The translations under genes were made by a program, and so were the position numbers. 64,000 bases of DNA from Candidatus Pacearchaeota archaeon. Its GTDB lineage: Archaea > Nanobdellota > Nanobdellia > Pacearchaeales > GW2011-AR1. This document shows, in pieces, positions 31,949-50,768 of this stretch (its first letter is position 1; each line of letters opens with the position of its first letter). Location: NCBI GenBank assembly GCA_041649045.1, contig JBAZNV010000003.1, positions 24,515-88,514 of the forward strand. The letters are read 5' to 3'. A model generated the notes under the pieces. It ran no database searches and had not been told where the DNA came from. It saw only the letters and a list, made by a program, of their open reading frames with translations.

Positions 31949-31950
31949 GA

Positions 31951-32320: not shown

Positions 32321-32334
32321 CCTTTTTTAATTTC

Positions 32335-37432: not shown

Positions 37433-38596
37433 TTATAAAAATACACATTCAATATTTTTGTTTATTCCTCTTATCTGCTCGTAAACTTCCTGATTGAATT
37501 GCACCACATTCAGGAATATTCTTATATTATCACTATTAGATTTTATAATATCTTCAGGTTTTCTGCATATTAAATCTGTCCCGTAAAGTCTTTTGTTTTG
37601 TTTTGGTGGGCTATTATCCAATACTCCTTTGAAAACTTTTTCATCCAGCCCATAAGCGAAAAGTTGATGCGCAATAAGGCTCGCACCGAAAAGCCAATTT
37701 TCTTTGTCGGGTTTTGCATAAGTCTTGACTTTATTTATTCTCTCAATTATTCTCTGCCCAAATTGATCAATCATCCTTCTTGTGTACTCTTTCAAATCGC
37801 TAATCTCAAACATTGCAGGCTCATTTGTCTTTTCGCCAACTATCTGTATTGCGTAATCAATATAAAATGAAATTTCTTTTATTTTAAATCCATGTTTTAA
37901 ATAAAGTTGAATCCAGTGAAGATTGGTGCATACTGATGTATGCTCGAGATTAATCACATTTCCAAAACCCTTAGAAAAATTATACTCTTGGTTTGGGACT
38001 GTAGTTATTAGTAACCCGCCGTCCTTCAACGCTTTTCTCGCATTAATAAAATATTCATTATAATCCATGAAATGCTCCAAAGTGTGGCACGAAACTATTG
38101 TGTCAAAAGTCCCCTCAAGTTCCTTTGCGGTCTTGCTGTTAAAAAGACCATTATGAACAACAACATTTTCTTTGGGACCAAAATATAATGGGTCAAAAAC
38201 TTCTACTCCAGTCTTGTAATGCTTCAAAAGTCTTTCAATGACTTTCCCCGGACCTGCGCCAATTTCTAAAAGCCTTCCTCCCTTATGGTATTTTTTTATA
38301 AGTTCAAACAACGAATTGTACTGACCTTCCCAAAGTTTTCCTATTCCGTCGGCATGAAAAATTTTATATAAAACCTCAGGATCAACAATATCTTTTAGAG
38401 TTATCAGACCACAATCTTCACAAAGACATATATTCATCGGCGCAAACTCATCTTCCTCCTTTGGCGTGTCGACACATACAGGCAAAACTGGCATCATTAT
38501 ATTTGCGTGCGGCGGTATAGCCTCGGAAAGATTTTTGGAATGACAAAAAGGACACTCTATTCTTCTTGTAAGATGTTTTGCTATTTCAATTTTCAT
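37433..38596 (-). CDS. SAM-dependent C-methyltransferase of the NDP-hexose C-methyltransferase (TylCIII-like) architecture
   Basis: 387 aa. N-terminal Zn-ribbon CPFCHS...CEDCG, class I MTase motif LLEIGAGPGK, and a C-terminal extension as in sugar C-methyltransferases. Confidence 0.75.
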   Translation of the reverse strand: MKIEIAKHLTRRIECPFCHSKNLSEAIPPHANIMMPVLPVCVDTPKEEDEFAPMNICLCEDCGLITLKDIVDPEVLYKIFHADGIGKLWEGQYNSLFELIKKYHKGGRLLEIGAGPGKVIERLLKHYKTGVEVFDPLYFGPKENVVVHNGLFNSKTAKELEGTFDTIVSCHTLEHFMDYNEYFINARKALKDGGLLITTVPNQEYNFSKGFGNVINLEHTSVCTNLHWIQLYLKHGFKIKEISFYIDYAIQIVGEKTNEPAMFEISDLKEYTRRMIDQFGQRIIERINKVKTYAKPDKENWLFGASLIAHQLFAYGLDEKVFKGVLDNSPPKQNKRLYGTDLICRKPEDIIKSNSDNIRIFLNVVQFNQEVYEQIRGINKNIECVFL

Positions 38597-38818: not shown

Positions 38819-39562
38819 ATGAAATACGAGAATACTCCTTATTCGTTCGAGGGAAAGACTATGCTTGTAACGGGTTCTTCAAGAGGCATTGGCGCCGCAA
38901 CAGCAAGGTTGGCAAAACAATATGGAGCAAAAGTTATTCTACACGGGAAAACAGATTCGCAGCCACTTAAAGATTTGGCAAAAGAGTTAGACTCGGGATA
39001 TATTTTTTGCGATGCTGCAGATGAATGGGCTATCATAAGAGAAGTGGGTAAACTTGGAGGGATTGATATCTTGGTGAATAATGCAGGTATAAATCCTTCA
39101 AAAAAATTTATGGATTTAACTAACGATGATTGGTCAAGGATTTATTCTGTAAATTTGATGGGTCCCGTTAATTTTTCAAGAGCTGTTATTCCTGGGATGC
39201 AAGACAGAGGGCATGGAAGAATAATCAATATCTCTTCCGCTAAAGGTTATAACCACGTTACTGGCAAACCTGCGTATGCAGCTTCAAAAGCGGCACTTAT
39301 GAGACTGACTACAAGCATGGCTCAGGAATTTGCGCCACATATATTAGTGAATTCTGTCGCGCCAGGTTTTACTAAAACAGAAATGACTGCAGGCACAATG
39401 TCCCCACAAATTCAGGGGCAAATAGATAAAATTCCACTTAGAAGAATGGCTAATGCAAGAGAAATCGCCGAAGTAGTTTTATTTTTAGCAAGTGATAATG
39501 CAAGTTATATCACCGGTCAAACGATTGCGGTTGATGGAGGTTTTAGTATAATTAGCGGATAA
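38819..39562 (+). CDS. short-chain dehydrogenase/reductase (FabG-like)
   Basis: 247 aa. TGSSRGIGAATA (cofactor site), NNAGI, and catalytic Y-x3-K in YAASKAAL. Confidence 0.88.
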   Translation: MKYENTPYSFEGKTMLVTGSSRGIGAATARLAKQYGAKVILHGKTDSQPLKDLAKELDSGYIFCDAADEWAIIREVGKLGGIDILVNNAGINPSKKFMDLTNDDWSRIYSVNLMGPVNFSRAVIPGMQDRGHGRIINISSAKGYNHVTGKPAYAASKAALMRLTTSMAQEFAPHILVNSVAPGFTKTEMTAGTMSPQIQGQIDKIPLRRMANAREIAEVVLFLASDNASYITGQTIAVDGGFSIISG

Positions 39563-39563: not shown

Positions 39564-40031
39564 ATGAAAATTAATTTAATACTTGATGTTGATGGAGTCA
39601 TGACCACGGGACAATTTTTATATTCAGAAGAAGGTAAAAGATACAAAATTTTTGGCCCACACGATGCCGACGGACTTAAGTTAATTAGAGACAAAGTGAA
39701 TATAACCTTTATTAGTGCTGACAAAAGGGGCTTTGCTATCTCAAAAAAGCGAATAGATGACATGGGTTACAAATTATTGCAAGTTTCAGAAGGAGACAGA
39801 TATAAGTTCATAAAAGAAAATTTTGGTTTTGAGAACACAATCTACATTGGGGACGGCATATTCGATGCCTTTATTATTAGAGATTGTAAGTTCGGAATAG
39901 CACCAGCAAATGCACGCATTGAAGCCCGAAAATTCGCAAAATTCGTCACACCATCTAAATCCGGCGAAGGAGCAGTATGTGACGCCTGTATAAAGATCAA
40001 TAAAACTTTTTTCGGTGCAGGAAAAATATAA
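39564..40031 (+). CDS. HAD-IIIA phosphatase, KdsC-like (sugar-acid/sugar phosphate phosphatase)
   Basis: 155 aa. LDVDGVMTTG (DxDGV motif I), DGLKLI, and YIGDGIFDAFIIRDCKFGIAPANA as in KdsC-family 8-phosphate phosphatases. Confidence 0.72.
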   Translation: MKINLILDVDGVMTTGQFLYSEEGKRYKIFGPHDADGLKLIRDKVNITFISADKRGFAISKKRIDDMGYKLLQVSEGDRYKFIKENFGFENTIYIGDGIFDAFIIRDCKFGIAPANARIEARKFAKFVTPSKSGEGAVCDACIKINKTFFGAGKI

Positions 40032-41073: not shown

Positions 41074-41736
41074 ATGGCACAAATAGACAGTACAAAAATT
41101 CAAAAAATATTTGATTACGTTTACTCGCCAACTTCTCCCTTAACAAAGGCGAATGGGAATTTGGTTTTTGGAAGATGGGATCCCTTAGTTGCACAAAGAG
41201 CCGGAGAAATTTATAAACAAGGATTAGTAGATTATTCAATGTTTGTTGGGGGCATAGGAAAAGATTCAGGAGTTTTAACCCAGTTAAATCTACCTGAGGC
41301 TACTTGGCAGGCAGCGTTAGGAAATATTTTCTATGGCATTCCTGCAAATACAATTTATACCGAACCAAGACCAACTAATGGGGGAGAGGCCGCAAGAATG
41401 GTGATCGAGGATTTGGTAGAATTAGAATCAAATAAGGGCCTAAAACATGACGGATTAATAATTCTTATACACCCTACAGCATCAAGAAGAATGAGGGCGA
41501 TAATGGACTTAACCAGAGATCAAAAGGGATTTAATACTTCTTATCAAAATGCAGGAAGTAATTACATTTTCAATTCAAAAAATCCAGTTGATCAAAAAGA
41601 AGCTGTGATGGAATTAGTAAAGCTCGCCGATTGGCCTGCAAAAAACTGGTGCGCCAAACAAAATGATCTGCCTGAAGATTTAGTTGCATACGCAAAGGAA
41701 GTATTACCGGTCGTAACTACGTCAGATTTTTGTTAA
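41074..41736 (+). CDS. DUF218 (YdcF/ElyC-like) domain protein
   Basis: 220 aa. LVFGRWDP..VAQRAGEIYKQGLVDYSMFVGGIGKDSG ... IYTEPRPTNGGEAARM follows the DUF218 pattern (vlG..., sGG..., E..S.nT.eNa). Assigned by pattern memory only. Confidence 0.45.
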   Translation: MAQIDSTKIQKIFDYVYSPTSPLTKANGNLVFGRWDPLVAQRAGEIYKQGLVDYSMFVGGIGKDSGVLTQLNLPEATWQAALGNIFYGIPANTIYTEPRPTNGGEAARMVIEDLVELESNKGLKHDGLIILIHPTASRRMRAIMDLTRDQKGFNTSYQNAGSNYIFNSKNPVDQKEAVMELVKLADWPAKNWCAKQNDLPEDLVAYAKEVLPVVTTSDFC

Positions 41737-41815
41737 ACTTTTATTAAATTTATAAACAGTAGTGTTTTTCCATAACCGCTACAGTTAAAGAGATTATTAA
41801 GATTAAAATATATTT

Positions 41816-42520
41816 TTATTCACCAGTATAACTTTCGCCATCAGGATAGTTCTTCATTGCGTGGGAATAAGATTCAGGAGTTCCCGTATCAAACCAAGAA
41901 AAAGTTTTTGATTTCAAACCTTCCTTCAAAAGAGCCTGCAAACCATTCGAAACCTGAATCTCTCCTTTGATTGCAGTTTTATTTTTTTCTAAAGCATCCC
42001 AAAAAATATCATAATCTTTTACGCCGAGCAAACCAATATACGCATGTTCATTATCATTTTTTACCTTATCATCAATTCTGCTTATTATTCCCTCTTCATC
42101 AATTTTTACTGAACAGAACCTTTCCGGATTTGCTACTTCAGCAACACCTAACCAGTTCTCTTCAGGTTCTGGGATTTCTTCAATTACTAACGTGTCCCCG
42201 GCAACATGTATAAAAGGACACATTAAGTGATTCTTGCAAGAATAAAGAGAAAAACCAGGTCCAGAACCTTCGCCTATGTAAGGATTAACTTCAACAAAAG
42301 TCAATTTTCTTTCAGGGTAAGCCGTCTTAAGATAGGTAACCAACCCTTCTTTTTTGTAACCTACAGCAATTACAATCTCGATCTCATCTGGAAACATTTC
42401 AATTATATGACAAATTGTTGGTTTTCCTTTTAGAGGAAGCAAAACTTTGTTAAGATGTTCACTAAATTCTTTCATCCTGCCGCCAACCCCTGCCGCAAGA
42501 ATGCATACTTTGTATTCCAT
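41816..42520 (-). CDS. sugar-phosphate nucleotidyltransferase (GT-A-like NTP-transferase fold)
   Basis: 234 aa. MEYKVCILAAGVGGRM (G-x-G-x-R loop). Clearly paralogous to the N-terminal domain of ORF 44764-46395 (shared YKVCILAAG, EIEIVIA, GSGPG, CPFI, IPEP..NW.GV). Confidence 0.75.
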   Translation of the reverse strand: MEYKVCILAAGVGGRMKEFSEHLNKVLLPLKGKPTICHIIEMFPDEIEIVIAVGYKKEGLVTYLKTAYPERKLTFVEVNPYIGEGSGPGFSLYSCKNHLMCPFIHVAGDTLVIEEIPEPEENWLGVAEVANPERFCSVKIDEEGIISRIDDKVKNDNEHAYIGLLGVKDYDIFWDALEKNKTAIKGEIQVSNGLQALLKEGLKSKTFSWFDTGTPESYSHAMKNYPDGESYTGE

Positions 42521-42632
42521 TAATTTTTTTATTTAATAGAACTTATAAAACTTTCGACATATAAACCTATATGTTACATTATAACCTTTATATAATAGCA
42601 ATCTTTATAAAAGCTCTTCATATAAAATTTTT

Positions 42633-43361
42633 ATGATAAACTATCAATTTAAGTCTCCTTGTAGTTACGATTCTGCAGTTTCACAGTTAGCAACATATTT
42701 GTCTGAACGTAAAAGTACAGCAGTAACTCCCCACGTGATATTAGTAGGTATTTCAGGGCTTTCTCAATCAGGAAAGACTACCTTTGCAAATTCTTTGGAA
42801 GAGGTTTTAGGAAATGTTGTTTCTATCGATGGAGATAAATATCAACCCGGAAGAGAAGTTGGAATGCCGATCTATAAAGAAGCGATTGAAGCAGCAAGAC
42901 AAGGAAGATTAGATCCTAATTTTCATCACCAGGTTTGGAACTATCAAGCGATGAAAGAACAAATTTTTGATCCAATTGCTCAGTTCAATCAATCCCCGGA
43001 TTATAGAATTACTTTGCAACTAAGGAATGTAATGAACGTTGCAACAAAAAGGAGTGATTCAATGCACGATGAAACAGTCGAGGTTAATAAAGATCAGACA
43101 CTAATTATGCCATTTATGTATCAAGGTCACTTAGGAGAACAGTTTGACTACAGGATAAGGCTGTTAATCACTCCGCAAACATCTGTTGATAGAAAGATTG
43201 CAAGAGATTTAGCAAAAGGAGTTCAAAGAGATCCAAAAACAACAATGGAGATGGTACAGTTAGTCGAATTCCCTGCAATGCAACATGAAGAAGAAGAATT
43301 CCCCTTAAGAAATGTTATAAAGCTTGACACGAACGATTTTACAAACATTAAGTTTCTTTAA
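42633..43361 (+). CDS. P-loop kinase, uridine-kinase/PRK-like
   Basis: 242 aa. Walker A ILVGISGLSQSGKTTFANSL. The rest is weakly PRK/uridine-kinase-like. Substrate unknown. Confidence 0.55.
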   Translation: MINYQFKSPCSYDSAVSQLATYLSERKSTAVTPHVILVGISGLSQSGKTTFANSLEEVLGNVVSIDGDKYQPGREVGMPIYKEAIEAARQGRLDPNFHHQVWNYQAMKEQIFDPIAQFNQSPDYRITLQLRNVMNVATKRSDSMHDETVEVNKDQTLIMPFMYQGHLGEQFDYRIRLLITPQTSVDRKIARDLAKGVQRDPKTTMEMVQLVEFPAMQHEEEEFPLRNVIKLDTNDFTNIKFL

Positions 43362-43385
43362 GAATATAGTTAATTGGATTTAATT

Positions 43386-44306
43386 TTATTCTCTTACTGC
43401 AATAGCAACGATGTCTTCCAATTTTTTCAAATTTTCATTACTATTTGCCCCTATCACCATATCTGCATTTTCTATATCTTCTGGACTTTCTAATTTATAT
43501 AATTCTCTTTCTTTAGAAATACCATAACATCTTGCAGCTCCTTCAGCTTCTGTAATATGAAGCATGCTTGCAACATCCCATGGTCCTCCTATCGCTGTAG
43601 ATATGCATCCAACAAGTGTCGGTCTTCCTGTAGCAACCAAAGCATATTGTACGCTGCTGTTTACGCAGCCTTCCTTTCCCCCAGCATCTTCAATCTGATC
43701 ACTTAAAGATCTTCTTCCTGATTGAGTTAAAATCTGCTTTCTTGTTCCATCTTTTAATTTTCTTTTGAACGGATGAAAGACATCCACTAAAACTCTCGAA
43801 CCATCCAAACCTTCTTTCTTATTTACGCCAATTTTTTGATCGTCATAAAGCCAGTTATGCTCGTCATAATCATAAACATTAAACCACGCACCTTTTTCTT
43901 CAGAAGAAAACCAAAATCTCCCAGTAGAAGGTTCCATCGTAGCCACAGCCAAAATTTTTTTGCGGGAACTGTCATATAAATCCAAAACTATTGCAGGTCC
44001 AGATCCACCGACCAAAAAAATTCCGGTTCCATCAAGAGGGTCGTGATGAATCTTTATTTTAGACCCTAGACCTCCCGAGTCTTCATCAGATTCTTCTTGG
44101 CTCAATCTTATCCCAGGATATCCATCTAAAATTATTGACTTTGTAATTTTTTGGCTTTCTCTATCAACTATCGTAACTGCAGTTTTATCTCCTTTAATGA
44201 GGTATTCTGATAAATCAACTTCACCTCTTATTGCTCCAACAATATACTTTGCTGCAGGAATGAGAGCTCTTGCCGAAACTTCTCTAAAATGTTCATAGGT
44301 ATTCAT
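43386..44306 (-). CDS. inositol monophosphatase/FBPase-family phosphatase
   Basis: 306 aa. HHDPLDGTGIF (the DP[IL]DGT metal motif) and GGPWDVASMLHITEAEGA (the WD.AA...EAGG motif). Confidence 0.7.
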   Translation of the reverse strand: MNTYEHFREVSARALIPAAKYIVGAIRGEVDLSEYLIKGDKTAVTIVDRESQKITKSIILDGYPGIRLSQEESDEDSGGLGSKIKIHHDPLDGTGIFLVGGSGPAIVLDLYDSSRKKILAVATMEPSTGRFWFSSEEKGAWFNVYDYDEHNWLYDDQKIGVNKKEGLDGSRVLVDVFHPFKRKLKDGTRKQILTQSGRRSLSDQIEDAGGKEGCVNSSVQYALVATGRPTLVGCISTAIGGPWDVASMLHITEAEGAARCYGISKERELYKLESPEDIENADMVIGANSNENLKKLEDIVAIAVRE

Positions 44307-44353: not shown

Positions 44354-44677
44354 TTATGAATAAAATTTTTTCTTCCAATCAAAGATTGTTTTTCTTGATA
44401 CTCTTACTTTAAAAGTTCGGTTTAAATTATAAACTACTTGACCTAAGCTATATCCATTTCGCATAAGACTAACCGCTGTTTTTATTATAATCGCCGGATG
44501 TCTAAATCTTTTAAAACCATCATTTGGTGTAAATTTTTTGCAACAATTTTTACAGAAATATATTGGTTTTTCTATTTTTTTATTTTTGCGGAGTTGTGCA
44601 ATCCGAGTCTTTTCCGAATTACAATAAACACATTGAGCTGTAGATCCAAATATTTCCATGTTAAGCAAATCAGTCAA
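44354..44677 (-). CDS. transposase-like Zn-ribbon plus HTH protein (N-terminal module of IS1/IS6-type archaeal transposases) with no DDE domain
   Basis: 107 aa. CVYCNSEK...YFCKNCCKKFTPNDGF (Zn ribbon), then IIIKTAVSLMRNGYSLGQVVYNLNRTFKVRVSRKTIFDWKKKF (HTH ending in W..KF). The ORF stops where a DDE catalytic domain would begin. Confidence 0.5.
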   Translation of the reverse strand: MTDLLNMEIFGSTAQCVYCNSEKTRIAQLRKNKKIEKPIYFCKNCCKKFTPNDGFKRFRHPAIIIKTAVSLMRNGYSLGQVVYNLNRTFKVRVSRKTIFDWKKKFYS

Positions 44678-44763
44678 ATCTTTATAAAAATATCGTTAAC
44701 TAAACACAAGTTTATATAGTAAAACCTTCCTTTATCCCCAGCAATAAAAAAAGTGAAAAAAAG

Positions 44764-46395
44764 ATGGATTACAAAGTATGTATTTTGGCAGCAGGAAGAA
44801 ATAATAGAGTAAGTTGTGCTGAAGATTTTCCAGTTGCATTACTTCCGATCGGAACAACCTCGTCAATAAGTAAAATTATAGAAAAATTTCCTCTTGAGAT
44901 AGAAATTGTCATTGCAACAGGATTTAAACAAGATTTGATTATTGATTTCTTAAAAATTGCGCACCCTGACAGAAAAATAAAAGTTGTAGAAATCTCGAAT
45001 TATCTTGAGGTCGGTTCTGGGCCTGGTCGTTCACTTTTAGCATGTAAAAAATATTTACAATGTCCGTTTATCTTTACATCGGCAGATACAATTGTTTCAG
45101 ACAAAATCCCAGAACCTTACCAAAACTGGATAGGGGTATCGCAAGTTTCAGATACAACGAATTACTGTATGGTCGAAGTAGAAAATGACTATGTTATTAA
45201 GCTTCACGACAAAGTTCCTATGCAGATACTTCTAAAAACATGCAAGAATTACAAAACGATTCTCAATAACGCTTTTATCGGAATGGCAGGAGTTTACAAT
45301 TACGAATCTTTCTGGGAGAGTTTGGAACAGAATCAGGATTTAATTGAAAAAAAATTACAGGTTTCTAACGGATTGTCAGGACTTATAGATCAAAAAATGA
45401 AGGTGATAAACTTTTTTACATGGTTCAGTATAGGCACTGAAGCCGGATATAACCTCGCAAATAGATTTTTCGAACAAAATAAAGTTATTATAAAACCTGA
45501 TGAATTTATTTACTTTGAAAATGGAAAGGTAATAAAATACTTTAAAGAAACAGAAATTGTTCAGCAAAGAATTGAACGATCAAAAAAACTCAAAGGAATT
45601 GTTCCGGAACTTTTGGACATCACGCCACATTTTTACTCTTACAAGTTTATTAAAGGGACTACGCTTGCAAAAATAAACGATGTTTTACTTTTTAAGGAAC
45701 TGCTTTCAGCTTGCAAAGAAAAACTTTGGAAATCGGTAACGAAAGAAGAACCCCAAAAGTTTAAAAATTTATGTTACAAATTTTATCACGATAAAACTTT
45801 AGAACGAGTAGAATTATTCTATAAAACAAAAGGCATAAAGGACGGCAAAGAAATAATTAATGGAGAAAAAACCCCTTTCCTGAAAGAAATGCTTTCTCAA
45901 CTTGATTGGGATAAACTTTCAGAAGGAATCCCTGTAAATTTTCACGGAGATTTTCAGCCAGAGAATATTCTAATTTGTGACCGCGGTTTTCAGTTGATAG
46001 ATTGGAGACATAATTTTGCAGGAAACTTGGAGCACGGGGACATATATTACGATTTCGCCAAGCTCCATCATGCTCTCATTGTTACACATCAGATAATAAG
46101 AGATAATCAATTTGAAATTAGAATTAATAACGATGTGGTTCATTTGGATTTTCTAATTAAGAGTAATCTCGCCGAATACAAAGATTTATTTGAAAACTTT
46201 GTTTTGGAAAATGGTTACGATCTTGATCGCCTTAAAATTCTTAGTGCTCTTATTTTTCTAAATATCGCACCATTGCATCACGAACCTTACGATCGTTTTC
46301 TTTACTATTTAGGGAAATATACCCTATTTAAGGAATTAAAAAATAAGAATCCTTATAGATTAAAAGAGGAGGTATTGCAATGGGTTATAAACTGA
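44764..46395 (+). CDS. bifunctional nucleotidyltransferase / APH-ChoK-fold (protein-kinase-like) small-molecule kinase
   Basis: 543 aa. N-terminal NT domain MDYKVCILAAGRNNR. C-terminal kinase domain with catalytic HGDFQPENILI and LIDWRHN (Brenner H-x-D-x4-N plus the D of the DFG-equivalent). Confidence 0.8.
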   Translation: MDYKVCILAAGRNNRVSCAEDFPVALLPIGTTSSISKIIEKFPLEIEIVIATGFKQDLIIDFLKIAHPDRKIKVVEISNYLEVGSGPGRSLLACKKYLQCPFIFTSADTIVSDKIPEPYQNWIGVSQVSDTTNYCMVEVENDYVIKLHDKVPMQILLKTCKNYKTILNNAFIGMAGVYNYESFWESLEQNQDLIEKKLQVSNGLSGLIDQKMKVINFFTWFSIGTEAGYNLANRFFEQNKVIIKPDEFIYFENGKVIKYFKETEIVQQRIERSKKLKGIVPELLDITPHFYSYKFIKGTTLAKINDVLLFKELLSACKEKLWKSVTKEEPQKFKNLCYKFYHDKTLERVELFYKTKGIKDGKEIINGEKTPFLKEMLSQLDWDKLSEGIPVNFHGDFQPENILICDRGFQLIDWRHNFAGNLEHGDIYYDFAKLHHALIVTHQIIRDNQFEIRINNDVVHLDFLIKSNLAEYKDLFENFVLENGYDLDRLKILSALIFLNIAPLHHEPYDRFLYYLGKYTLFKELKNKNPYRLKEEVLQWVIN

Positions 46396-47153
46396 TCGAT
46401 GACACTGGATTTTATAAGTTTGAAAGACTGCACCTTAGTCCACAAGAGTTTATCGATTGTCCCCCAAGCAACCGTGTTTCAACAACCTATATTCATAAAG
46501 GCAGATTGCTTTTTGCCTTTGATGCAAAGGAGTTTCTTCTTTCTTTAGGACAAGGTTTTATTGTTGCTCCCGGAATAGGATACTCTCTTTCGTCCGTCGA
46601 GGAGCTTGTTGCATACAGGGTTTCTTCAGAAGTTAGAAGGGATAGACCTTTAGTCGAAATTGTAGACCTTGGGACTTGCAAAGAAGAGATTCCTCTCGTA
46701 GCCCCCAAAATAATAACCGACCCAAAAAGAGTTGAAAAACCTTGGGGTTGTGAGTTATGGATAGGTTATAATAATTATCATGTTTTAAAAAGAATTAGCA
46801 AGATGAAAGGGCGAGAATCAAGCTTTCATTTTCATCGTCAGAAAGTTGAAACAAATTATCTTGAATCTGGAACTTCAAATGTTATTGAACACAGACTCGA
46901 TTCAACGCTTTCAATAGAAGAAATTATTGCTTCTGCTAAAGAAAAGGAGCATGAGGCCCCTAGAAATATTTCTTCGGGAGACTTTTGGACTTCTCATCCT
47001 TATATTGCTCATAGAGTAATACCTCTTACCAACTACATAGCTTACGAAGCATCAACACCTGAATTAGATGATGTTATTAGAATCCAGGACGACTTTGGAA
47101 GAGGTTCAGGAAGAATAATAGAAGAACATCGAGGGGGTATAAAAAATGGATAG
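46380..47153 (+). CDS. cupin-domain protein (sugar-phosphate isomerase/epimerase-like)
   Basis: 257 aa. EKPWGCELWI ... SSFHFHRQKVETNYLESG ... IAHRVIPL gives cupin motifs 1 and 2, resembling type II PMI/cupin isomerases. GAGGAGG Shine-Dalgarno at 46366-46372. Confidence 0.6.
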   Translation: MGYKLIDDTGFYKFERLHLSPQEFIDCPPSNRVSTTYIHKGRLLFAFDAKEFLLSLGQGFIVAPGIGYSLSSVEELVAYRVSSEVRRDRPLVEIVDLGTCKEEIPLVAPKIITDPKRVEKPWGCELWIGYNNYHVLKRISKMKGRESSFHFHRQKVETNYLESGTSNVIEHRLDSTLSIEEIIASAKEKEHEAPRNISSGDFWTSHPYIAHRVIPLTNYIAYEASTPELDDVIRIQDDFGRGSGRIIEEHRGGIKNG

Positions 47154-47802
47154 AAATGAAACAGAAGAATTAATAAGATCCTATTTTGATGAGAAAAAGG
47201 ATGCACTTAGTAGGCTTCCAATTTCTAGATTAACAGATGCGGCGGATTTAGTTTGGAGAGCTTATGAAAACAAAGGGACAATTTATGGTTGCGGGAACGG
47301 AGGTAACGCAGGTGCAGTGTCAAATTTATTAAATGATCTAGGGACTCATACTTTTGTAACTGATGACAAAACAAAACCCTTGCCAAGAGATGTTCCTAGG
47401 TTAAGATGTCTAGATCTATGCACAAATACAACTGCTATAACGGCATTCCTTAATGATTTTGGTTCATATTATATCTTTTCCAAGCAGCTAGAGACCTATC
47501 GCGTAGGAGAAAACGACATTATATTTGGATATAGCGGAAGTGGAAGCTCTAGAAACATCATAGAGGCTTTCGAAACAGTAAAAGGTGCAGGAGGAAAAAC
47601 TGTTGCAGTTTCAAGGAACCCTGAAGGTGCGATCGTCAAAATAGCAGATGTTCCTGTAGTATTCACTTTTGGTAGACCTTCAGAATTTCCCGGTCAACAG
47701 GCAAGCAATGATAACAACTTCCATTATGAAGGGTTTGGTTTTGATTTAGGGCACGTAATAACTGGTATAATGAGAAAAAGAGTAATGGAGAAATATTTAT
47801 AA
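47146..47802 (+). CDS. SIS-domain isomerase, GmhA-like (sedoheptulose-7-phosphate isomerase family)
   Basis: 218 aa. IYGCGNGGNAGAVSNLLNDLG, ITAFLNDFGSYYIFSKQL and GYSGSGSSRNIIEA follow the GmhA pattern (GNGGS..., ...NDy.y..vF..Q, S.SG.S.N...A). Confidence 0.78.
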   Translation: MDRNETEELIRSYFDEKKDALSRLPISRLTDAADLVWRAYENKGTIYGCGNGGNAGAVSNLLNDLGTHTFVTDDKTKPLPRDVPRLRCLDLCTNTTAITAFLNDFGSYYIFSKQLETYRVGENDIIFGYSGSGSSRNIIEAFETVKGAGGKTVAVSRNPEGAIVKIADVPVVFTFGRPSEFPGQQASNDNNFHYEGFGFDLGHVITGIMRKRVMEKYL

Positions 47803-47807
47803 TAAAA

Positions 47808-48683
47808 ATGGAAAAGCAAGAAGTAATTAAATCATTGAAACGTATTGCAAGAGAAATCAGAAGCCGTACGATTGATTCAATTTATATAGCGAACTCCGGG
47901 CATTACGGTTCTTCTCTATCTTGGGCAGATATTGCAGCAACACTAATTTTTTATGAAATGGACTTAGGTAAGAATTCTTTAGGACAACAACTAAAAACGC
48001 CCCCTGTAGAAGTTGCCCCTCAAACTGAAAGAGATATTCTAGTTTTGTCGAAAGGGCATGGAGTTCCGGCCTTATATTCTGCCATTTCACTCTTAAATCC
48101 GCGTTATCTCTCTGGATATTCTTTAACAACTCTGAGAGAGATTAATAGTCCTCTGCAAGGACATCCAGTTAGAGAAACATTGCCTATGATAGATGTAAGC
48201 ACCGGTTCGTTAGGGCAAGGAGTTTCGATGGCTGCAGGAATAGCTTATGCAATAAAACATCGGGGGCAGAATAGAAGAGTTTATGTAGTAGTCGGTGACG
48301 GAGAATGTCAGGAAGGACAAGTATGGGAAGCGTTTATGTCAGCTCCAAATTTAGGTTTAGAGAATCTGACTGTTATTATAGATAGTAACGGTTATCAACT
48401 CGAAGGTTCCGTTAATGGTAAGTCTCCACAAGGAGATCTCAAAAAGATTTTTAATGAATTTGGATTTTATACTCAAGAAGTTGACGGGCATAATATAAGG
48501 GAGTTGGCAGATGCATATTCAAATGCAAGGGTTAATTCAAGAGATCTGCAAAAGCCTTCAATGATTTTAGCCCAAACAATTAAAGGAAAAGGGGTCTCAT
48601 TTATGGAAAAGGAACCTTGGAGATGGCACGGAGGTTCTATGACGGCCGAACAATATGAAACTGCAAAGAAGGAGTTATCATGA
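47808..48683 (+). CDS. transketolase, N-terminal (TPP-binding) subunit
   Basis: 291 aa. SGHYGSSLSWADIAATL, LSKGHGVPALY and VVGDGECQEGQVWEA (the TPP GDG motif). Confidence 0.9.
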   Translation: MEKQEVIKSLKRIAREIRSRTIDSIYIANSGHYGSSLSWADIAATLIFYEMDLGKNSLGQQLKTPPVEVAPQTERDILVLSKGHGVPALYSAISLLNPRYLSGYSLTTLREINSPLQGHPVRETLPMIDVSTGSLGQGVSMAAGIAYAIKHRGQNRRVYVVVGDGECQEGQVWEAFMSAPNLGLENLTVIIDSNGYQLEGSVNGKSPQGDLKKIFNEFGFYTQEVDGHNIRELADAYSNARVNSRDLQKPSMILAQTIKGKGVSFMEKEPWRWHGGSMTAEQYETAKKELS

Positions 48684-49624
48684 CTACTGATTTAGAAAAG
48701 AGAGCAACTAGGGATGGTTTCGGAAAAGCTTTGCTTGAAGTTGGAGACGACCCCAGAATTATAGTCTTAGGAATTGATCTATCTGAGGCAACAAAAACGA
48801 AAAAATTTAGAGAAAAATATCCTCATAGATTTTGCGAAGTCGGAATTCAGGAACAAAATGCAGTTGGTATGGCAGCAGGAATGGCTCTTGAAGGACTTCG
48901 GCCAGTTGTTCCAAGCTTCGGAGCTTTTTTAACTGGAAGAGCATATGAACAACTTTTGATTTCTGCAGGTTATAATCGTGCAGGGATTTTAGTCGTTGGG
49001 ACTCACTCAGGGTTAGCGATAGGGAAAGATGGCACAACACAAATGGGGATAACAGATATAAATGTAATGCGAGGGATTCCAGGCATACAAATATTCCAAC
49101 CTGCCGACGCAAGAGAGGCAGAACAAATAACTCATTATCTTGCCAGGAACAATCAATTAGCTTATCTAAGATTATCAAGAACCCCTCAGCCTCAGATCCT
49201 CCCCAAAGATTATAATTTTATATTTAACAAAGCAACGGCTCTTAAAGAAGGAAAGGACTTGGTCTTTTTTGCAACAGGAGATAGTGTTTATAATTCTTTT
49301 GTGGCTGCAGAGGAACTTGAGAGATTTGGGGTGAACGCCTCTGTAATAAATGTATCAACATTAAAACCGGTAGACGAACAAACAATATTTCAATATGCAA
49401 ATTGTTCCAAAGTTATAGTAACTGTAGAGGATCACTCAATTATTGGTGGACTTGGTTCTATAGTTTCTGAAGTGGTCGCAAAGGAAGGGATTGGAAAGAA
49501 AGTGCTGAAGATTGGGATTAATGATTGTTATGGGGAAAGTGGCGACCCGAAAGATTTGTACAGAAAGTACGGTCTTGATTCCGAAGGAATCATAAGAGCA
49601 ACAAAAAAGTTTTATTGTGATTAG
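48680..49624 (+). CDS. transketolase, C-terminal (pyrimidine-binding) subunit
   Basis: 314 aa. FCEVGIQEQNAVGMAAGMA, GTHSGLAIGKDGTTQMG and a C-terminal transketolase domain. 4-nt overlap with the N-terminal subunit gene. Confidence 0.9.
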   Translation: MTTDLEKRATRDGFGKALLEVGDDPRIIVLGIDLSEATKTKKFREKYPHRFCEVGIQEQNAVGMAAGMALEGLRPVVPSFGAFLTGRAYEQLLISAGYNRAGILVVGTHSGLAIGKDGTTQMGITDINVMRGIPGIQIFQPADAREAEQITHYLARNNQLAYLRLSRTPQPQILPKDYNFIFNKATALKEGKDLVFFATGDSVYNSFVAAEELERFGVNASVINVSTLKPVDEQTIFQYANCSKVIVTVEDHSIIGGLGSIVSEVVAKEGIGKKVLKIGINDCYGESGDPKDLYRKYGLDSEGIIRATKKFYCD

Positions 49625-49664: not shown

Positions 49665-50768
49665 ATGAAAAAAGTTCTATTCTTGTCGCCCCTTCCCCCA
49701 CCAAATTACGGCAGTGCACTTTCGAGTCAAATGTGTTTGTCTATTCTAAGAAAGAATAATTACGATACCAATACCATCAAATTAAACTTTGCAAAAGAGA
49801 TGTCCGAGATTGGAAAAATAAACTATTCTAAATTTTCGCAGTTCTTACGGATAAAAAGACAACTGCAAAATTATTTTAAAAAGGAAAAGCCCGACCTAAT
49901 TTATATGGTTCCTGCCACATACGGGCTGGGACTTCTCAGAGAATATTTTATTTTCAAGATTATCAAAAGAAATAATAAAGAAAAAATTTTATTCCACATG
50001 CGAAGCAGAATGACAGAAGAAAATTGGAGAAATCCCATTTATCGTTTTGTTTACAAAAAAATGTTCAAAGATCAAAAAGCAATAGTTCTGGATGATTCAT
50101 TAAAAGGAGATTTGCACAACTTGGTTTCTAAAGAAAATTTATTTGTCTTGCCCAATGCAATAAAAAATGAAGTAACAGATACAAAAATTAAAAAAACGAT
50201 AAATAAGAGAAAAAAGAGAAGAACTTTTAATTTGCTGTTTTTATCTCATATGGACGAAACAAAAGGATGGTGCCAACTCTTATCTGTGTGCAAGATACTA
50301 AAAGGTGAAGGCATAGACTTCAAATGTAATTTTGTAGGCGATTGGCCCTCAAACAAAGAAAAAACAAAGTTTGAAGATTTTGTAAAGATTAATTCTCTTG
50401 AAAAAAATGTAAAATATCTTGGCCCAAAATTTGGGAAAGAAAAAGACACGGTCATGGAAGATTCAGATGTCCTTATTTATCCCAGCACTCTTGATACATT
50501 CGGGAGGGTTATTATTGAATGTATGATGTGGGGCTTGCCCGTTATTGCTAACGGAGTCGGTGCGATTCCCGCAACGGTAAAACATAACAAAACAGGATTT
50601 GTTTTAAAAGAAAATTCTCCTGAAGAAATTGTCGCGTATGTAAAAAAATTAAGAAACAAAAACTTAAGAATAAAAATGGGAAGACTTGGAAGGAAAAGAT
50701 TTTTGGAAGAATACGAAATCGGAGAATATGAAAAGAAATTTTTGAAAATTATCAATTCCAATAATTAA
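49665..50768 (+). CDS. glycosyltransferase family 4 (GT-B, group 1)
   Basis: 367 aa. C-terminal STLDTFGRVIIECMMWGLPVIANGVGAIPATVKHNKTGFVL (E-x7-E region). Confidence 0.85.
   Translation: MKKVLFLSPLPPPNYGSALSSQMCLSILRKNNYDTNTIKLNFAKEMSEIGKINYSKFSQFLRIKRQLQNYFKKEKPDLIYMVPATYGLGLLREYFIFKIIKRNNKEKILFHMRSRMTEENWRNPIYRFVYKKMFKDQKAIVLDDSLKGDLHNLVSKENLFVLPNAIKNEVTDTKIKKTINKRKKRRTFNLLFLSHMDETKGWCQLLSVCKILKGEGIDFKCNFVGDWPSNKEKTKFEDFVKINSLEKNVKYLGPKFGKEKDTVMEDSDVLIYPSTLDTFGRVIIECMMWGLPVIANGVGAIPATVKHNKTGFVLKENSPEEIVAYVKKLRNKNLRIKMGRLGRKRFLEEYEIGEYEKKFLKIINSNN

What the first reader, a model, noticed from the sequence alone, without database searches (positions are those of the whole stretch)
44764..49624. 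Operon of NT-kinase fusion, cupin, GmhA-like isomerase and split transketolase: candidate non-canonical NDP-heptose (or related higher-sugar) pathway
Seen in sequence:
- Five plus-strand genes are tightly packed, with start/stop overlaps at 46380/46395, 47146/47153 and 48680/48683 and a 5-nt gap before tkt-N. Some have strong Shine-Dalgarno motifs, for example GAGGAGG at 46366-46372.
- Gene 1 is a nucleotidyltransferase fused to an APH/choline-kinase-fold kinase (HGDFQPEN...IDW).
- Gene 2 is a cupin with sugar-phosphate-isomerase-like motifs.
- Gene 3 is a GmhA-like SIS isomerase.
- Genes 4 and 5 are the transketolase N and C subunits.

Established knowledge: the canonical NDP-heptose route is sedoheptulose-7-P to GmhA, then a kinase (PfkB-type HldE domain I or GHMP-type HddA), then a HAD phosphatase (GmhB), then a nucleotidyltransferase. 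Transketolase makes sedoheptulose-7-P.

Inference: here the anomeric kinase would be of a third, protein-kinase-like fold fused to the nucleotidyltransferase. The phosphatase step could be supplied by the adjacent IMPase-family protein (43386-44306) or the KdsC-like HAD (39564-40031). That combination would be an undescribed variant. Alternatively, the split transketolase may do a two-carbon branch transfer onto an NDP-sugar, as in some antibiotic sugar pathways.
Basis: inference. Interest (0 to 1): 0.65.

Follow-up and report, generated by a model that had tools for sequence, protein, structure and literature searches.

The report
Archaeal operon activating a rare sugar
A tightly packed operon in a DPANN archaeon belongs to a widespread, uncharacterised gene cassette that most likely builds an unusual (probably seven-carbon) sugar and loads it onto a nucleotide for surface glycans, using a fused kinase/nucleotidyltransferase so far characterised only in phages that put arabinose on their DNA.

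Summary
Five co-directional, overlapping genes at 44764-49624 encode a nucleotidyltransferase fused to an APH/choline-kinase-fold kinase, a PMI-type cupin, a GmhA-like SIS protein and a split transketolase.

The linkage is not chance. It recurs in 19 other loci from archaea and bacteria and is reinforced by gene fusions.

The operon is one variant of a much larger cassette. The NT-kinase matched 284 stretches of the species-representative genome collection. Its constant partners are the cupin, a KdsC-like HAD phosphatase (in the window at 39564-40031) and a reductase (SDR at 38819-39562). Its variable front end is either SIS plus transketolase (17 of 49 complete loci) or a GatZ/KbaZ-like enzyme (33 of 49), and never neither.

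The NT-kinase is a distant homologue (hhalign probability 96.9%) of the NT-kinase in a phage arabinosylation cluster of the AfhE type. A 2026 paper reports that AfhE phosphorylates arabinose-5-P at C1, and that a HAD then removes the 5-phosphate before UDP-arabinose is made.

Heptose is plausible and unproven (about 0.4). The IMPase-like gene belongs to a separate module. The cupin and the reductase remain unexplained.

Verdict: new variant of a known kind; interest 0.58.

The parts
44711..44718 (+). TTTATATA, an archaeal TATA-box-like element 46 nt upstream of the ATG of gene 1; candidate operon promoter
   Evidence: Read directly from the sequence. Not tested. The sigma-70 scan is irrelevant for an archaeon.
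44764..45465 (+). Gene 1, N-terminal domain: sugar-1-phosphate nucleotidyltransferase (GT-A-like NTP_transferase fold)
   Evidence: TIGR03992, residues 4-151. A profile search hits RmlA, GalU and IPCT. Foldseek gives E 1e-12 to 1e-10 to IPCT, GalU, PntC, RmlA, LicC, MurU and HddC. G11 is invariant, and A9 and A10 nearly so, within the LAAGxxxR motif.
45466..46395 (+). Gene 1, C-terminal domain: APH/choline-kinase-fold small-molecule kinase, inferred sugar-phosphate 1-kinase
   Evidence: Pfam APH. The domain model has pLDDT 93. Foldseek matches APH(2''), choline/ethanolamine kinases, FN3K and macrolide phosphotransferases. K258, H394, D396, N401, D413 and R415 are invariant. The full length is homologous to phage Acj61p083 in an AfhE-type cluster (hhalign probability 96.9%, E 1.4e-10; HMM).
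46380..47153 (+). Gene 2: two-domain cupin. The C-terminal half is a PMI-type (PF01050-like) metallo-cupin and the N-terminal ~110 aa are an extra domain. Inferred aldose-ketose isomerase; its role in this variant is unresolved
   Evidence: Alignment A3 shows the invariant PWGxE, SLQxHxxKxE, HR and STPELDDVIR motifs. Short homologues hit PF01050/TIGR01479. It is present in 100% of complete loci. It is fused to the NT-kinase in L002 and to the HAD in L010/L011.
47146..47802 (+). Gene 3: GmhA-like SIS sugar-phosphate isomerase of a distinct subfamily
   Evidence: SIS_2, with GmhA as best match but far below the cut-offs. The phosphate loop SGSGSS and the ND motif are kept. E65 is D, H61 is N, S55 is N and R69 is H. 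There is an inserted HxFVxDDK segment and a C-terminal FPGQxxxNDNNFHxE motif. The H180 equivalent is kept. It is fused to the NT-kinase in P0059/L001.
47808..48683 (+). Gene 4: transketolase N-terminal (ThDP-binding) subunit
   Evidence: PF00456 at E 2e-37 and NF004559 at 238 bits. The equivalents of His26/66/100/261, the GDG motif and the N motif are read from the translation.
48680..49624 (+). Gene 5: transketolase C-terminal (pyrimidine-binding plus C-terminal domain) subunit
   Evidence: PF02779, PF02780 and NF004559 at 260 bits. The equivalents of R358, S385, E411, H461, D469 and R520 are present. The motif is DGTTQ rather than DGPTHQ, so the E. coli His473 equivalent is missing, as in most cassette TKs.
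49665..50768 (+). GT4 glycosyltransferase, 40 nt downstream on the same strand; candidate user of the product
   Evidence: PF00534 at E 4e-27. It is not a conserved neighbour across loci.
38819..39562 (+). Classical SDR oxidoreductase: the cassette's reductase slot, filled in other loci by a shikimate-dehydrogenase-like protein
   Evidence: adh_short_C2 at E 4e-58. The TGxxxGxG, NNAG and YxxxK motifs are present. A reductase (shikDH-like or SDR, nearly mutually exclusive) is present in 17 of 17 TK-type and 28 of 33 GatZ-type complete loci.
39564..40031 (+). KdsC-like (C0-type) HAD phosphatase: the cassette's phosphatase, inferred to remove the terminal phosphate
   Evidence: TIGR01670 at 61.7 bits, below the cut-off of 106.95. 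The DVDG, SAD, K and GDGxxD motifs are present. It is present in 14 of 17 and 30 of 33 complete loci. It is fused to the cupin in L010/L011.
44354..44677 (-). 107-aa zinc-ribbon protein with an IS6-transposase-N-terminus-like segment, divergent from gene 1; possible regulator
   Evidence: Weak hits only. It is conserved in the same divergent position in L003-L008.
37433..38596 (-). SAM methyltransferase with weak similarity to NDP-sugar C-methyltransferase end domains; a frequent cassette neighbour
   Evidence: Methyltransf_23 at E 8e-16. Methyltransf_13 and Methyltransf_14 score below their cut-offs. It lies within 8 kb of the NT-kinase in 9 of 17 and 18 of 33 complete loci, and directly adjacent in the reductase-less proteobacterial loci.

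Best explanation
The operon, together with the SDR-HAD gene pair 5 kb upstream, is a self-contained route from central sugar phosphates to a nucleotide-activated rare aldose for the surrounding glycosylation island.

**Proposed steps**
1. The split transketolase makes a ketose omega-phosphate. By default this is sedoheptulose-7-P, from a pentose-P acceptor and a ketose-P donor.
2. The GmhA-like SIS protein isomerises it to the aldose omega-phosphate.
3. The APH-fold C-terminal domain of gene 1 phosphorylates the anomeric hydroxyl, giving a 1,omega-bisphosphate.
4. The KdsC-like HAD (39564-40031) removes the omega-phosphate.
5. The N-terminal domain of gene 1 condenses the sugar-1-P with an NTP to give the NDP-sugar.
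6. The PMI-type cupin and the SDR carry out one further isomerisation or redox tailoring step. Its position in the pathway is not resolved.
7. Glycosyltransferases of the island use the product. This includes GT4 at 49665; the island ends with AglB.

**Shown:** fold and family of every protein, intact catalytic motifs, conserved linkage, fusions, and homology of gene 1 to the NT-kinase of an AfhE-type phage cluster.

**Inferred:** every substrate, the order of the steps, and the carbon number of the sugar.

**My estimates:** the AfhE-like logic (1-kinase on a sugar phosphate, HAD, then NT) about 0.75; a C7 sugar made from sedoheptulose-7-P about 0.4.
For: - **Conserved linkage.** Of 49 loci with at least 6 kb of flank on each side, 17 carry both TK subunits next to the NT-kinase, and 16 of those also carry the SIS gene. 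All 17 have the cupin and a reductase, and 14 have the HAD.
- **Fusions.** NT-kinase-SIS (L001/P0059), cupin-NT-kinase (L002/P0052), HAD-cupin (L010, L011) and NT-kinase-GatZ-like (L023).
- **Co-inheritance.** NT-kinases of TK-type loci from archaea and bacteria form one clade, so enzyme and front end are inherited together.
- **Homology to the AfhE type.**
  - The gene 1 family matches Acj61p083 over 459 columns (hhalign probability 96.9%, E 1.4e-10; HMM E 9e-15).
  - Acj61p083 sits beside an arabinose-5-P isomerase, a small gene the record annotates as 'phosphoheptose isomerase' (my inference: the cluster's AfhF-like phosphatase, not verified) and a thymidylate-synthase-like gene.
  - This is the arrangement described for AfhE/AfhF. 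AfhE is reported to be both a D-arabinose-5-P kinase and a UDP-arabinose pyrophosphorylase. AfhF is a Mg-dependent phosphatase acting on the bisphosphate (PMC13326640).
- **Catalytic competence.** Motifs are intact in the kinase, NT, HAD, SDR, TK and cupin.
- **SIS best matches** are GmhA.
- **TK keeps the sugar-phosphate binding residues**.
- **Heptose hint.** One TK-type locus (L001) has a GT9 (heptosyltransferase-family) gene two genes downstream.
- **Context.** The window around the operon is a glycan island with GT4, GT2 and WecG-type transferases, a flippase-like protein and AglB.
Against: - No enzyme was assayed.
- The SIS protein scores 64 bits against a 209-bit GmhA cut-off. It differs at four GmhA active-site positions (S55N, H61N, E65D, R69H). 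The E. coli reference sequence and its residue roles are from memory.
- Two isomerases (SIS and cupin) are one more than a heptose route needs, and the reductase has no role in it.
- In 33 of 49 complete loci the same downstream enzymes work with a GatZ/KbaZ-like protein instead of TK plus SIS. That family is known for hexose-6-P chemistry, so the common intermediate could be a hexose.
- Bacteria that should have a housekeeping TK (an inference from what is known of these groups) still carry the cassette TK. This argues that the TK does more than supply ordinary sedoheptulose-7-P.
- The kinase domain is structurally nearest to choline/ethanolamine kinases and FN3K, not to known anomeric kinases. 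TM-scores are only 0.4-0.55.
- GT9 was seen in only one locus.
- The HAD is of the KdsC type, not the GmhB type that the paper reports for AfhF. It shows no similarity to the small Acj61 gene beside the NT-kinase.
Confidence: 0.5

Rival explanations
1. The activation logic is the same, but the sugar is not a heptose. TK plus SIS would be a two-enzyme substitute for the GatZ/KbaZ-like enzyme, and both front ends would deliver the same unusual ketohexose-6-P. One example is tagatose-6-P, made by a GatZ-type 4-epimerase. The TK route would take the C2 unit of fructose-6-P, let the SIS protein invert the tetrose-4-P, and put the C2 unit back. The PMI-type cupin would then make the aldose-6-P (for example talose-6-P), which is activated as an NDP-hexose.
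For: - Every complete locus has exactly one front end: 17 TK-type, 33 GatZ-like, none with neither. The single locus with both simply holds two cassettes.
- Cupin, HAD and both kinds of reductase are shared by the two variants, as are candidate transferases c13 and c32.
- HAD sequences do not separate by variant.
- In the GatZ variant the cupin is the only isomerase, which gives it a clear role.
- The GatZ-like protein is homologous to GatZ structures 3TXV and 2FIQ.
- A dedicated TK in bacteria that should already have a pentose-phosphate pathway (an inference) suggests a non-standard TK product.
Against: - TK stereochemistry normally demands a 2R-hydroxy acceptor (from memory), and the residue that enforces it (the Asp469 equivalent) is conserved here.
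- The SIS protein resembles GmhA, a C7 enzyme, and not any known tetrose-P isomerase.
- NT-kinases and cupins of the two variants form separate clades.
- The two variants sit in tandem in L044, and one MAG carries two TK-type cassettes. This argues for different products.
Confidence: 0.2
2. A phosphatase-first, salvage-like order. The HAD dephosphorylates the ketose phosphate. The cupin isomerises the free ketose to a manno- or talo-configured aldose, as lyxose/mannose isomerases do. The kinase then phosphorylates the free aldose at C1, and the NT makes the NDP-sugar. In this scheme the SIS protein acts before the TK and supplies its acceptor.
For: - The HAD-cupin and cupin-NT-kinase fusions fit the order HAD, cupin, kinase.
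- This is the only order in which SIS, TK, HAD, cupin and kinase each have a non-redundant role and the shared enzymes do the same job in both variants (inference).
- APH-fold kinases acting on free sugars are known, such as NahK and AmgK (from memory).
Against: - The only characterised homologue, AfhE, is reported to phosphorylate the sugar 5-phosphate, with the phosphatase acting afterwards (PMC13326640).
- The NT-kinase-SIS fusion fits the order isomerase then kinase.
- The invariant basic residues in the kinase domain (R269, R272, K344, R348, R415, K433) would suit a phosphorylated substrate. This is a weak argument.
Confidence: 0.1
3. A LicC-LicA-like system for a CDP-polyol. The reductase turns the sugar into an alditol, the HAD removes the phosphate, the choline-kinase-like domain phosphorylates a primary hydroxyl, and the NT makes a CDP-alditol for phospho-polyol decoration of glycans.
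For: - The NT-then-kinase domain order is the same as in LicCA fusions (from memory).
- The kinase is nearest in fold to choline/ethanolamine kinases.
- The NT is near LicC, IPCT and PntC.
- A reductase is nearly always present.
Against: - A clade of proteobacterial cassettes has no reductase within 8 kb yet keeps HAD, GatZ-like, cupin and NT-kinase.
- An aldose-ketose isomerase is present in every cassette but would not be needed for an alditol.
- No LicD- or TagF-type phosphotransferase was seen in the window.
- The characterised homologue AfhE makes a sugar 1-phosphate.
Confidence: 0.08
4. One reading: the split transketolase transfers a two-carbon branch onto an NDP-sugar, as in some antibiotic sugar pathways.
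For: - Split ThDP enzymes do such chemistry in avilamycin-type pathways (from memory).
- The TK C-subunit lacks the His473 equivalent.
Against: - The residues that bind the phosphate of a sugar-phosphate substrate (R358, S385, H461 and R520 equivalents) are all present.
- The two halves together reach the NCBIfam transketolase equivalog score.
- Three close relatives (L004-L006) keep the His.
- No 4,6-dehydratase that would provide a keto-sugar acceptor is part of the conserved cassette.
Confidence: 0.03
5. The genes are ordinary pentose-phosphate and housekeeping genes that merely lie next to a sugar-activating enzyme.
For: Split TKs are the normal form in many archaea (from memory), and the window also holds glycolysis and glycogen genes.
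Against: The same arrangement occurs in 19 other loci from both domains, including bacteria that should have their own TK. There are also fusions between cassette members.
Confidence: 0.02

Closest known systems
Phage UDP-D-arabinofuranose pathway for arabinosyl-5-hydroxycytosine DNA: arabinose-5-P isomerase, AfhE and AfhF of phage HY126, with analogues in RB69 and DLP3 (PMC13326640, which cites He et al. and Mahler et al. 2025)
   Same: - One polypeptide has an N-terminal MurU/LicC-like nucleotidyltransferase and a C-terminal APH-like kinase.
- It is homologous to gene 1.
- It is encoded next to an SIS isomerase and works with a HAD phosphatase.
- The reported order is isomerase, 1-kinase on the sugar phosphate, phosphatase, then NT.
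   Different: - The similarity is distant. tblastn found only about 30% identity over 29% of gene 1 (E 0.3), and the hhalign alignment shows 21% identity.
- The SIS protein here is GmhA-like, not KpsF/GutQ-like.
- The HAD here is KdsC-like, not GmhB-like.
- The cellular cassette adds a transketolase or GatZ-like front end, a PMI-type cupin and a reductase.
- It sits in glycan islands of archaea and bacteria, not in DNA-modification clusters.
- The sugar is not expected to be arabinose.
Canonical NDP-D-glycero-D-manno-heptose pathways (GmhA; HldE or HddA; GmhB; HldC or HddC)
   Same: The logic is ketose-7-P isomerase, anomeric kinase, 7-phosphatase, then nucleotidyltransferase. The SIS protein's best matches are GmhA.
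   Different: - The kinase has the APH fold, not PfkB or GHMP.
- The phosphatase is KdsC-like, not GmhB.
- The SIS protein is below every GmhA cut-off and has altered active-site residues.
- A dedicated TK, a cupin and a reductase are added.
Lincosamide GDP-octose pathway (LmbR transaldolase, LmbN GmhA-like isomerase, LmbP kinase, LmbK phosphatase, LmbO NT); from memory
   Same: A dedicated pentose-phosphate-type C-C bond-forming enzyme feeds a GmhA-like isomerase. Kinase, HAD phosphatase and NT then act to give an NDP-activated higher sugar.
   Different: A transaldolase (C3 transfer) takes the place of the transketolase (C2 transfer). The kinase is GHMP-type and is not fused to the NT. That pathway belongs to an actinomycete antibiotic cluster.
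AmgK-MurU, NahK and FKP sugar salvage enzymes; from memory
   Same: An APH-fold (AmgK, NahK) or fused (FKP) anomeric kinase works with a nucleotidyltransferase. MurU is among the structural neighbours of the NT domain.
   Different: Those enzymes act on free, imported or recycled sugars and have no de novo front end. NahK and AmgK were not among the top 50 structural matches of the kinase domain.
LicC-LicA (CDP-choline), including LicCA fusions; from memory
   Same: The domain order is NT then APH/choline-kinase fold. LicC and choline kinases are among the best structural matches.
   Different: The context of sugar-phosphate enzymes (TK, SIS, PMI-type cupin, HAD) and the homology to AfhE point to a sugar, not an amino alcohol.

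Membership tests
AfhE-type bifunctional sugar-phosphate 1-kinase / NDP-sugar pyrophosphorylase | A single chain with an N-terminal nucleotidyltransferase and a C-terminal APH-like kinase | tested here: met
   The AlphaFold2 model has pLDDT 93 and pTM 0.89. Foldseek was run on the whole protein and on the kinase domain.
AfhE-type bifunctional sugar-phosphate 1-kinase / NDP-sugar pyrophosphorylase | Sequence homology to a phage protein of an arabinosylation cluster | tested here: met
   hhalign of A2 against Acj61p083 gives probability 96.9% and E 1.4e-10 over 459 columns. The cassette HMM hits it at E 9e-15 and hits Enterococcus phage 9183 ORF047 at E 8e-40. That Acj61p083 is the AfhE orthologue is inferred from its gene neighbours; the AfhE sequence itself was not available.
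AfhE-type bifunctional sugar-phosphate 1-kinase / NDP-sugar pyrophosphorylase | Works with an adjacent SIS isomerase and a HAD phosphatase | tested here: met
   The SIS gene is directly downstream, and the two are fused in L001. The HAD is present in most loci, and in the window lies 4.7 kb upstream. Both belong to subfamilies other than the phage ones.
AfhE-type bifunctional sugar-phosphate 1-kinase / NDP-sugar pyrophosphorylase | Phosphorylates C1 of an aldose omega-phosphate and makes the NDP-sugar | not testable with these tools
   This needs enzyme assays.
Canonical NDP-heptose pathway | GmhA (sedoheptulose-7-P isomerase) with its Zn/catalytic residues | tested here: inconclusive
   GmhA is the best match, but at 64 bits against a cut-off of 209. 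The phosphate loop, the ND motif and the H180 equivalent are kept. S55, H61 and R69 are replaced and E65 is D (E. coli reference from memory).
Canonical NDP-heptose pathway | PfkB (HldE) or GHMP (HddA) heptose-7-P kinase | tested here: not met
   The operon's kinase has the APH fold. A distant HddA/fucokinase-like GHMP kinase exists elsewhere in the window at 18026-19090 (170 bits against a cut-off of 600).
Canonical NDP-heptose pathway | GmhB-type HAD 7-phosphatase | tested here: not met
   The cassette HAD is KdsC-like (TIGR01670 at 61.7 bits; the HAD-IIIA model only at E 0.006).
Transketolase | ThDP motif, catalytic histidines and sugar-phosphate binding residues | tested here: met
   Pfam and NCBIfam hits and residues read from the translation. 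One exception is that the E. coli His473 equivalent is absent (DGTTQ), as in 12 of the 18 proteins in the cassette's TK C-subunit cluster.
Type II phosphomannose isomerase cupin (PF01050) | Cupin with a Gln/His-His-Glu-His metal site and the C-terminal DD(I/V)xR motif | tested here: inconclusive
   The window protein has no Pfam hit. Its aligned homologues do, and all motif residues are conserved in it. The activity is unknown.
KdsC (Kdo-8-P phosphatase) family | C0 HAD with four HAD motifs, scoring above the family cut-off | tested here: inconclusive
   The motifs are present. The score is 61.7 against a cut-off of 106.95, so it is a relative and not a member by the curated threshold.
LicC-LicA CDP-choline system | Choline kinase plus phosphocholine cytidylyltransferase, used with LicD-type transferases | not tested
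   Only the fold and the domain order agree. No LicD-like gene was found among the annotated window genes. Choline-binding residues were not examined.

The most novel reading that the evidence does not exclude
A cassette spread across DPANN archaea, CPR bacteria and many marine and sediment bacteria makes a nucleotide sugar that has never been described. Candidates are an NDP-heptose or NDP-octose with non-manno configuration, or NDP-D-talose. In this reading the two interchangeable front ends are different enzymatic solutions to the same unusual ketose phosphate: GatZ/KbaZ-like on one side, transketolase plus GmhA-like isomerase on the other. The second would include a transketolase-based epimerisation cycle. 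The AfhE-type NT-kinases of phages would then be offshoots of this cellular family.
Probability: 0.25. Interest if true: 0.8.

Novelty: new variant of a known kind. Interest (0 to 1): 0.58.

Why it matters
- **Annotation gap.** The NT-kinase family is large. Two protein searches returned 1,462 and 3,215 clusters from capped candidate lists, and 284 stretches in the species-representative genome collection encode a relative. Every public name seen for it is generic: 'phosphotransferase', 'hypothetical protein', 'choline kinase'. No curated model names the family.
- **Testable function.** Linking it to the recently characterised phage AfhE enzyme gives a testable function for all of these genes. 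It also suggests that the phage DNA-arabinosylation pathway and a cellular glycan pathway share an origin.
- **Biology of ultra-small cells.** Several host groups here (DPANN archaea, CPR bacteria) are ultra-small and mostly uncultured, and their surface glycans are largely unknown. A dedicated de novo route to a rare sugar would say something concrete about their cell surfaces.
- **Enzymology.** If the product is a heptose, this would be a further, non-homologous solution for heptose activation, besides the HldE and HddA routes. A dedicated transketolase in a glycan operon would also be unusual.

Tried and rejected
- **Sequence searches of genes 1 and 2 against PDB chains** found nothing useful. 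A profile of gene 1 found only the NT domain.
- **Foldseek with the whole gene 1 model** was swamped by NT hits, so the kinase domain was folded alone. Its matches were weak (E 2e-5, TM 0.4-0.55) and did not single out any substrate class.
- **Seven literature searches** for the gene combination found no description of the cassette. The AfhE lead came only after a tblastn against phage genomes drew attention to a paper listed earlier.
- **The plasmid collection** gave one irrelevant partial hit.
- **IMPase as the pathway phosphatase** was rejected in favour of the KdsC-like HAD. The IMPase-like gene is present in 1 of 17 TK-type loci, and in L029 it is fused to the stand-alone NT.
- **A canonical heptose kinase/NT elsewhere in the window** was considered.
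  - 18026-19090 is only a distant HddA/fucokinase-like GHMP kinase.
  - 11031-12182 is a cytidylyltransferase-like domain fused to a GHMP part. A homologue of it lies next to a GDP-mannose 4,6-dehydratase and an epimerase/reductase-family gene in L084. That points to fucose-type salvage rather than heptose.
- **A cyclitol route from sedoheptulose-7-P**, suggested by the shikimate-dehydrogenase-like partner, was rejected because no sugar-phosphate cyclase is in the cassette.
- **The missing His473 equivalent as a marker of altered TK function** was not pursued, because three close relatives keep it.
- **The product's carbon number** could not be decided from sequence.

Full report
**1. What is in the window**

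The window has about 34% G+C. The best matches of its genes are in DPANN archaea: Pacearchaeota, Woesearchaeota and Nanoarchaeota MAGs.

They show 16-, 8- and 4-nt start/stop overlaps and one 5-nt gap. A GAGGAGG motif sits 7 nt before the second gene. A TTTATATA element lies 46 nt upstream of the first ATG.

The region around the operon is a glycosylation island. It holds GT4, GT2 and WecG-type transferases, methyltransferases, a flippase-like protein, an asparagine synthase-like amidotransferase and an AglB oligosaccharyltransferase at 61505-63985.

**2. The proteins**

*Gene 1* folds with high confidence (pLDDT 93, pTM 0.89) into two domains.
- The N-terminal domain is a nucleotidyltransferase resembling IPCT, GalU, RmlA, LicC, MurU and HddC.
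- The C-terminal domain is an APH/choline-kinase-fold kinase.
- The catalytic residues K258, H394-G-D396, N401 and D413 are invariant in 57 homologues.

*Gene 2* has no Pfam or PDB hit.
- It aligns with shorter homologues that carry the type II phosphomannose-isomerase cupin domain.
- It keeps that family's metal ligands and its STPELDDVIR motif.
- It has an extra N-terminal domain of about 110 residues.

*Gene 3* is an SIS protein whose best matches are GmhA. The scores are far below the curated cut-offs.
- In an alignment with cassette relatives and E. coli GmhA (reference from memory), the phosphate loop, the ND motif and the H180 equivalent are kept.
- S55, H61 and R69 are replaced, and E65 is Asp.
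- The family has its own insertion and a C-terminal NDNNFHxE motif.

*Genes 4 and 5* are the two halves of a transketolase. The ThDP motif, the catalytic histidines and the sugar-phosphate binding residues are present. The E. coli His473 equivalent is missing, as in most but not all cassette transketolases.

**3. The linkage is conserved, and the operon is one variant of a larger cassette**

A scan of species-representative genomes found 284 stretches that encode a relative of gene 1, and 80 loci were fetched. They come from DPANN archaea, CPR bacteria, Omnitrophota, SAR11, SAR86, Gamma- and Deltaproteobacteria, Bdellovibrionales, Chlamydiales and others.

I clustered the neighbouring ORFs and scored them with HMMs built from the clusters. 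Among the 49 loci with at least 6 kb on each side:

| Feature | TK-type loci | GatZ/KbaZ-like loci |
|---|---|---|
| Number of loci | 17 (16 also with the SIS gene) | 33 |
| PMI-type cupin | 17 of 17 | 33 of 33 |
| KdsC-like HAD | 14 of 17 | 30 of 33 |
| Reductase (shikDH-like or SDR, almost never both) | 17 of 17 | 28 of 33 |

One locus (L044) counts in both columns because it holds two cassettes in tandem. No complete locus lacks a front end. The GatZ/KbaZ-like assignment rests.

In the window the HAD (39564-40031) and the SDR (38819-39562) form an adjacent pair 5 kb upstream. An inserted second module separates them from the operon.

Fusions tie the parts together:
- NT-kinase-SIS (L001/P0059)
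- cupin-NT-kinase (L002/P0052)
- HAD-cupin (L010, L011)
- NT-kinase-GatZ-like (L023)

In a neighbour-joining tree the NT-kinases of TK-type loci from archaea and bacteria form one clade, separate from the GatZ-type clades. The cupins mostly follow the same split. The HADs do not.

**4. A characterised relative**

A tblastn of gene 1 against phage genomes found several matches:
- full-length homologues in Enterococcus phages;
- a full-length homologue in a marine viral contig that carries a cupin-NT-kinase-GatZ-like cassette;
- weak kinase-domain matches in T4-like phages such as Acj61.

In Acj61 the matching 552-aa protein lies between an arabinose-5-P isomerase and a small gene that the record annotates as 'phosphoheptose isomerase'. 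A thymidylate-synthase-like gene is nearby. I take the small gene to be the cluster's AfhF-like phosphatase; this is an inference and was not verified.

A profile of the gene 1 family aligns with the 552-aa protein over 459 columns, with probability 96.9% and E 1.4e-10.

This is the gene arrangement described for phages that arabinosylate 5-hydroxycytosine. According to PMC13326640:
- AfhF is a Mg-dependent HAD phosphatase that removes the terminal phosphate of the 1,5-bisphosphate.
- An SIS-type isomerase supplies arabinose-5-P.

The cellular cassette thus has a biochemical precedent for the order isomerase, 1-kinase on the sugar phosphate, phosphatase, then nucleotidyltransferase. The accessory proteins are not orthologous. 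The SIS protein is GmhA-like rather than KpsF-like, and the HAD is KdsC-like rather than GmhB-like.

**5. Most likely mechanism**

By homology and context the steps would be:
1. TK makes a ketose omega-phosphate.
2. The SIS protein makes the aldose phosphate.
3. The kinase domain makes the 1,omega-bisphosphate.
4. The HAD removes the omega-phosphate.
5. The NT domain makes the NDP-sugar.
6. Transferases of the island use it.

I put about 0.75 on this activation logic.

For the sugar itself, sedoheptulose-7-P and a heptose is the simplest reading: it is the usual TK product, the SIS protein is GmhA-like, and one locus has a GT9 gene. I put only about 0.4 on it, for four reasons:
- The SIS active site is altered.
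- The cupin and the reductase have no role in a plain heptose route.
- Bacteria that should have their own TK still carry the cassette TK.
- The same downstream enzymes more often work with a GatZ/KbaZ-like enzyme, whose family is known for hexose-6-P chemistry.

The strict either/or pattern of the two front ends allows two readings. They could be two ways to the same unusual ketose phosphate (rival 1), or they could be homologous pathways for a C7 and a C6 sugar. The separate NT-kinase clades, the tandem cassettes in L044 and the two TK-type cassettes in one MAG favour the second reading. The shared HADs, reductases and candidate transferases favour the first.

**6.

- The fused APH-fold kinase/NT is not an undescribed solution in general, because of AfhE. 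It would be new only for a heptose.
- The IMPase-like gene (43386-44306) belongs to a separate module with a stand-alone NT, a P-loop kinase and a 220-aa protein. It is fused to that NT type in L029.
- Two-carbon branch transfer onto an NDP-sugar is unlikely.

**7. Verdict**

The finding is real, conserved and functionally coherent. It is a new variant of a known kind of pathway. Its product is unknown, and it has a clear experimental path. Interest is 0.58.

Noticed in passing
window 41074-44306: A second sugar-activation-like module sits between the SDR-HAD pair and the operon. It consists of a 220-aa protein of unknown family (41074-41736, +), a stand-alone NT paralogous to the N-domain of gene 1 (41816-42520, -), a P-loop kinase (42633-43361, +) and an IMPase/CysQ-like phosphatase (43386-44306, -). 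It recurs in DPANN loci. The IMPase is fused to this NT type in L029, and a HAD is fused to it in L064.
   Followed up: partly
window 18026-19090 (+); L059 3213-4811 (-): A GHMP kinase whose best match is HddA (heptose-7-P kinase) at 170 bits against a cut-off of 600; it is also fucokinase-like. In a Micrarchaeia locus (L059) a similar kinase lies next to an SIS protein that keeps GmhA residues S55 and H61. A more canonical GmhA-HddA pair may therefore exist in DPANN archaea.
   Followed up: partly
window 11031-12182 (+), between tRNA genes: A 383-aa fusion of a cytidylyltransferase-like domain (like RfaE domain II) with a fucokinase/HddA-like GHMP C-terminal part. A 51%-identical homologue in L084 lies next to a GDP-mannose 4,6-dehydratase and an epimerase/reductase-family gene, which suggests a fucose-type salvage enzyme.
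   Followed up: partly
L086 (Enterococcus phage 9183, record 29756-32956): A full-length NT-kinase homologue (cassette HMM E 8e-40) directly follows a small HAD gene. It sits among thymidylate synthase, dUTPase, thymidylate kinase and a 'nucleotide sugar synthetase-like' gene. This looks like an uncharacterised DNA sugar-modification cluster in a Gram-positive phage.
   Followed up: no
L088 (Marine virus AG-345-E15, locus 8640-11480): A contig filed as viral carries a cupin-NT-kinase-GatZ-like cassette (32% identity to gene 1 over 96% of its length) and a second cupin at 14319-14681. It is either a virus carrying the cellular cassette or a mis-assigned cellular contig.
   Followed up: partly
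window 48680-49624 and cassette relatives: Twelve of the 18 proteins in the cassette's transketolase C-subunit cluster have DGxTQ or DGxSQ where canonical transketolases have DGPTHQ, so the E. coli His473 equivalent is missing. Three close relatives (L004-L006) keep it.
   Followed up: partly
L044 (alphaproteobacterial SAG AG-464-G03); L004 and L006 (one Pacearchaeota MAG): One locus carries a GatZ-type and a TK-type cassette in tandem. One MAG carries two TK-type cassettes on different contigs, one with an SDR and the other with a shikimate-DH-like reductase.
   Followed up: no
window 44354-44677 (-): A 107-aa zinc-ribbon protein with an IS6-transposase-N-terminus-like part. It keeps the same divergent position upstream of the NT-kinase in six related archaeal loci (L003-L008). 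It may be a domesticated regulator.
   Followed up: no
window 16339-18023 (+): A glycogen phosphorylase-like gene is split into two overlapping ORFs (16339-17388 and 17319-18023), each matching only part of the Pfam model. This could be a frameshift, a pseudogene or a very divergent enzyme.
   Followed up: no
window 19180-33799: For a DPANN archaeon the window holds a notable set of central-metabolism genes: ROK kinase, a glycogen debranching-like protein, glycogen synthase, a GH57 enzyme, TIM, a DeoC/LacD-type aldolase, a PfkB kinase, PGK, GAPDH and a three-gene FeFe-hydrogenase cluster (21812-25009).
   Followed up: no
shikimate-DH-like partners, e.g. L028 9168-9986: The cassette's alternative reductase is close to genuine shikimate dehydrogenases (NF009202 at 247 bits; aroE at 199.6 bits against a cut-off of 200.2). 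It keeps the Lys/Asp catalytic pair but lacks the SxS carboxylate-binding motif (E. coli AroE reference from memory). This suggests a neutral ring ketone or alcohol as substrate.
   Followed up: partly
P0019: A 99%-identical protein from a 92.6-kb ENA contig is recorded as only 350 aa, covering 64% of gene 1. This may reflect a different start call or a frameshift in a near-identical strain.
   Followed up: no
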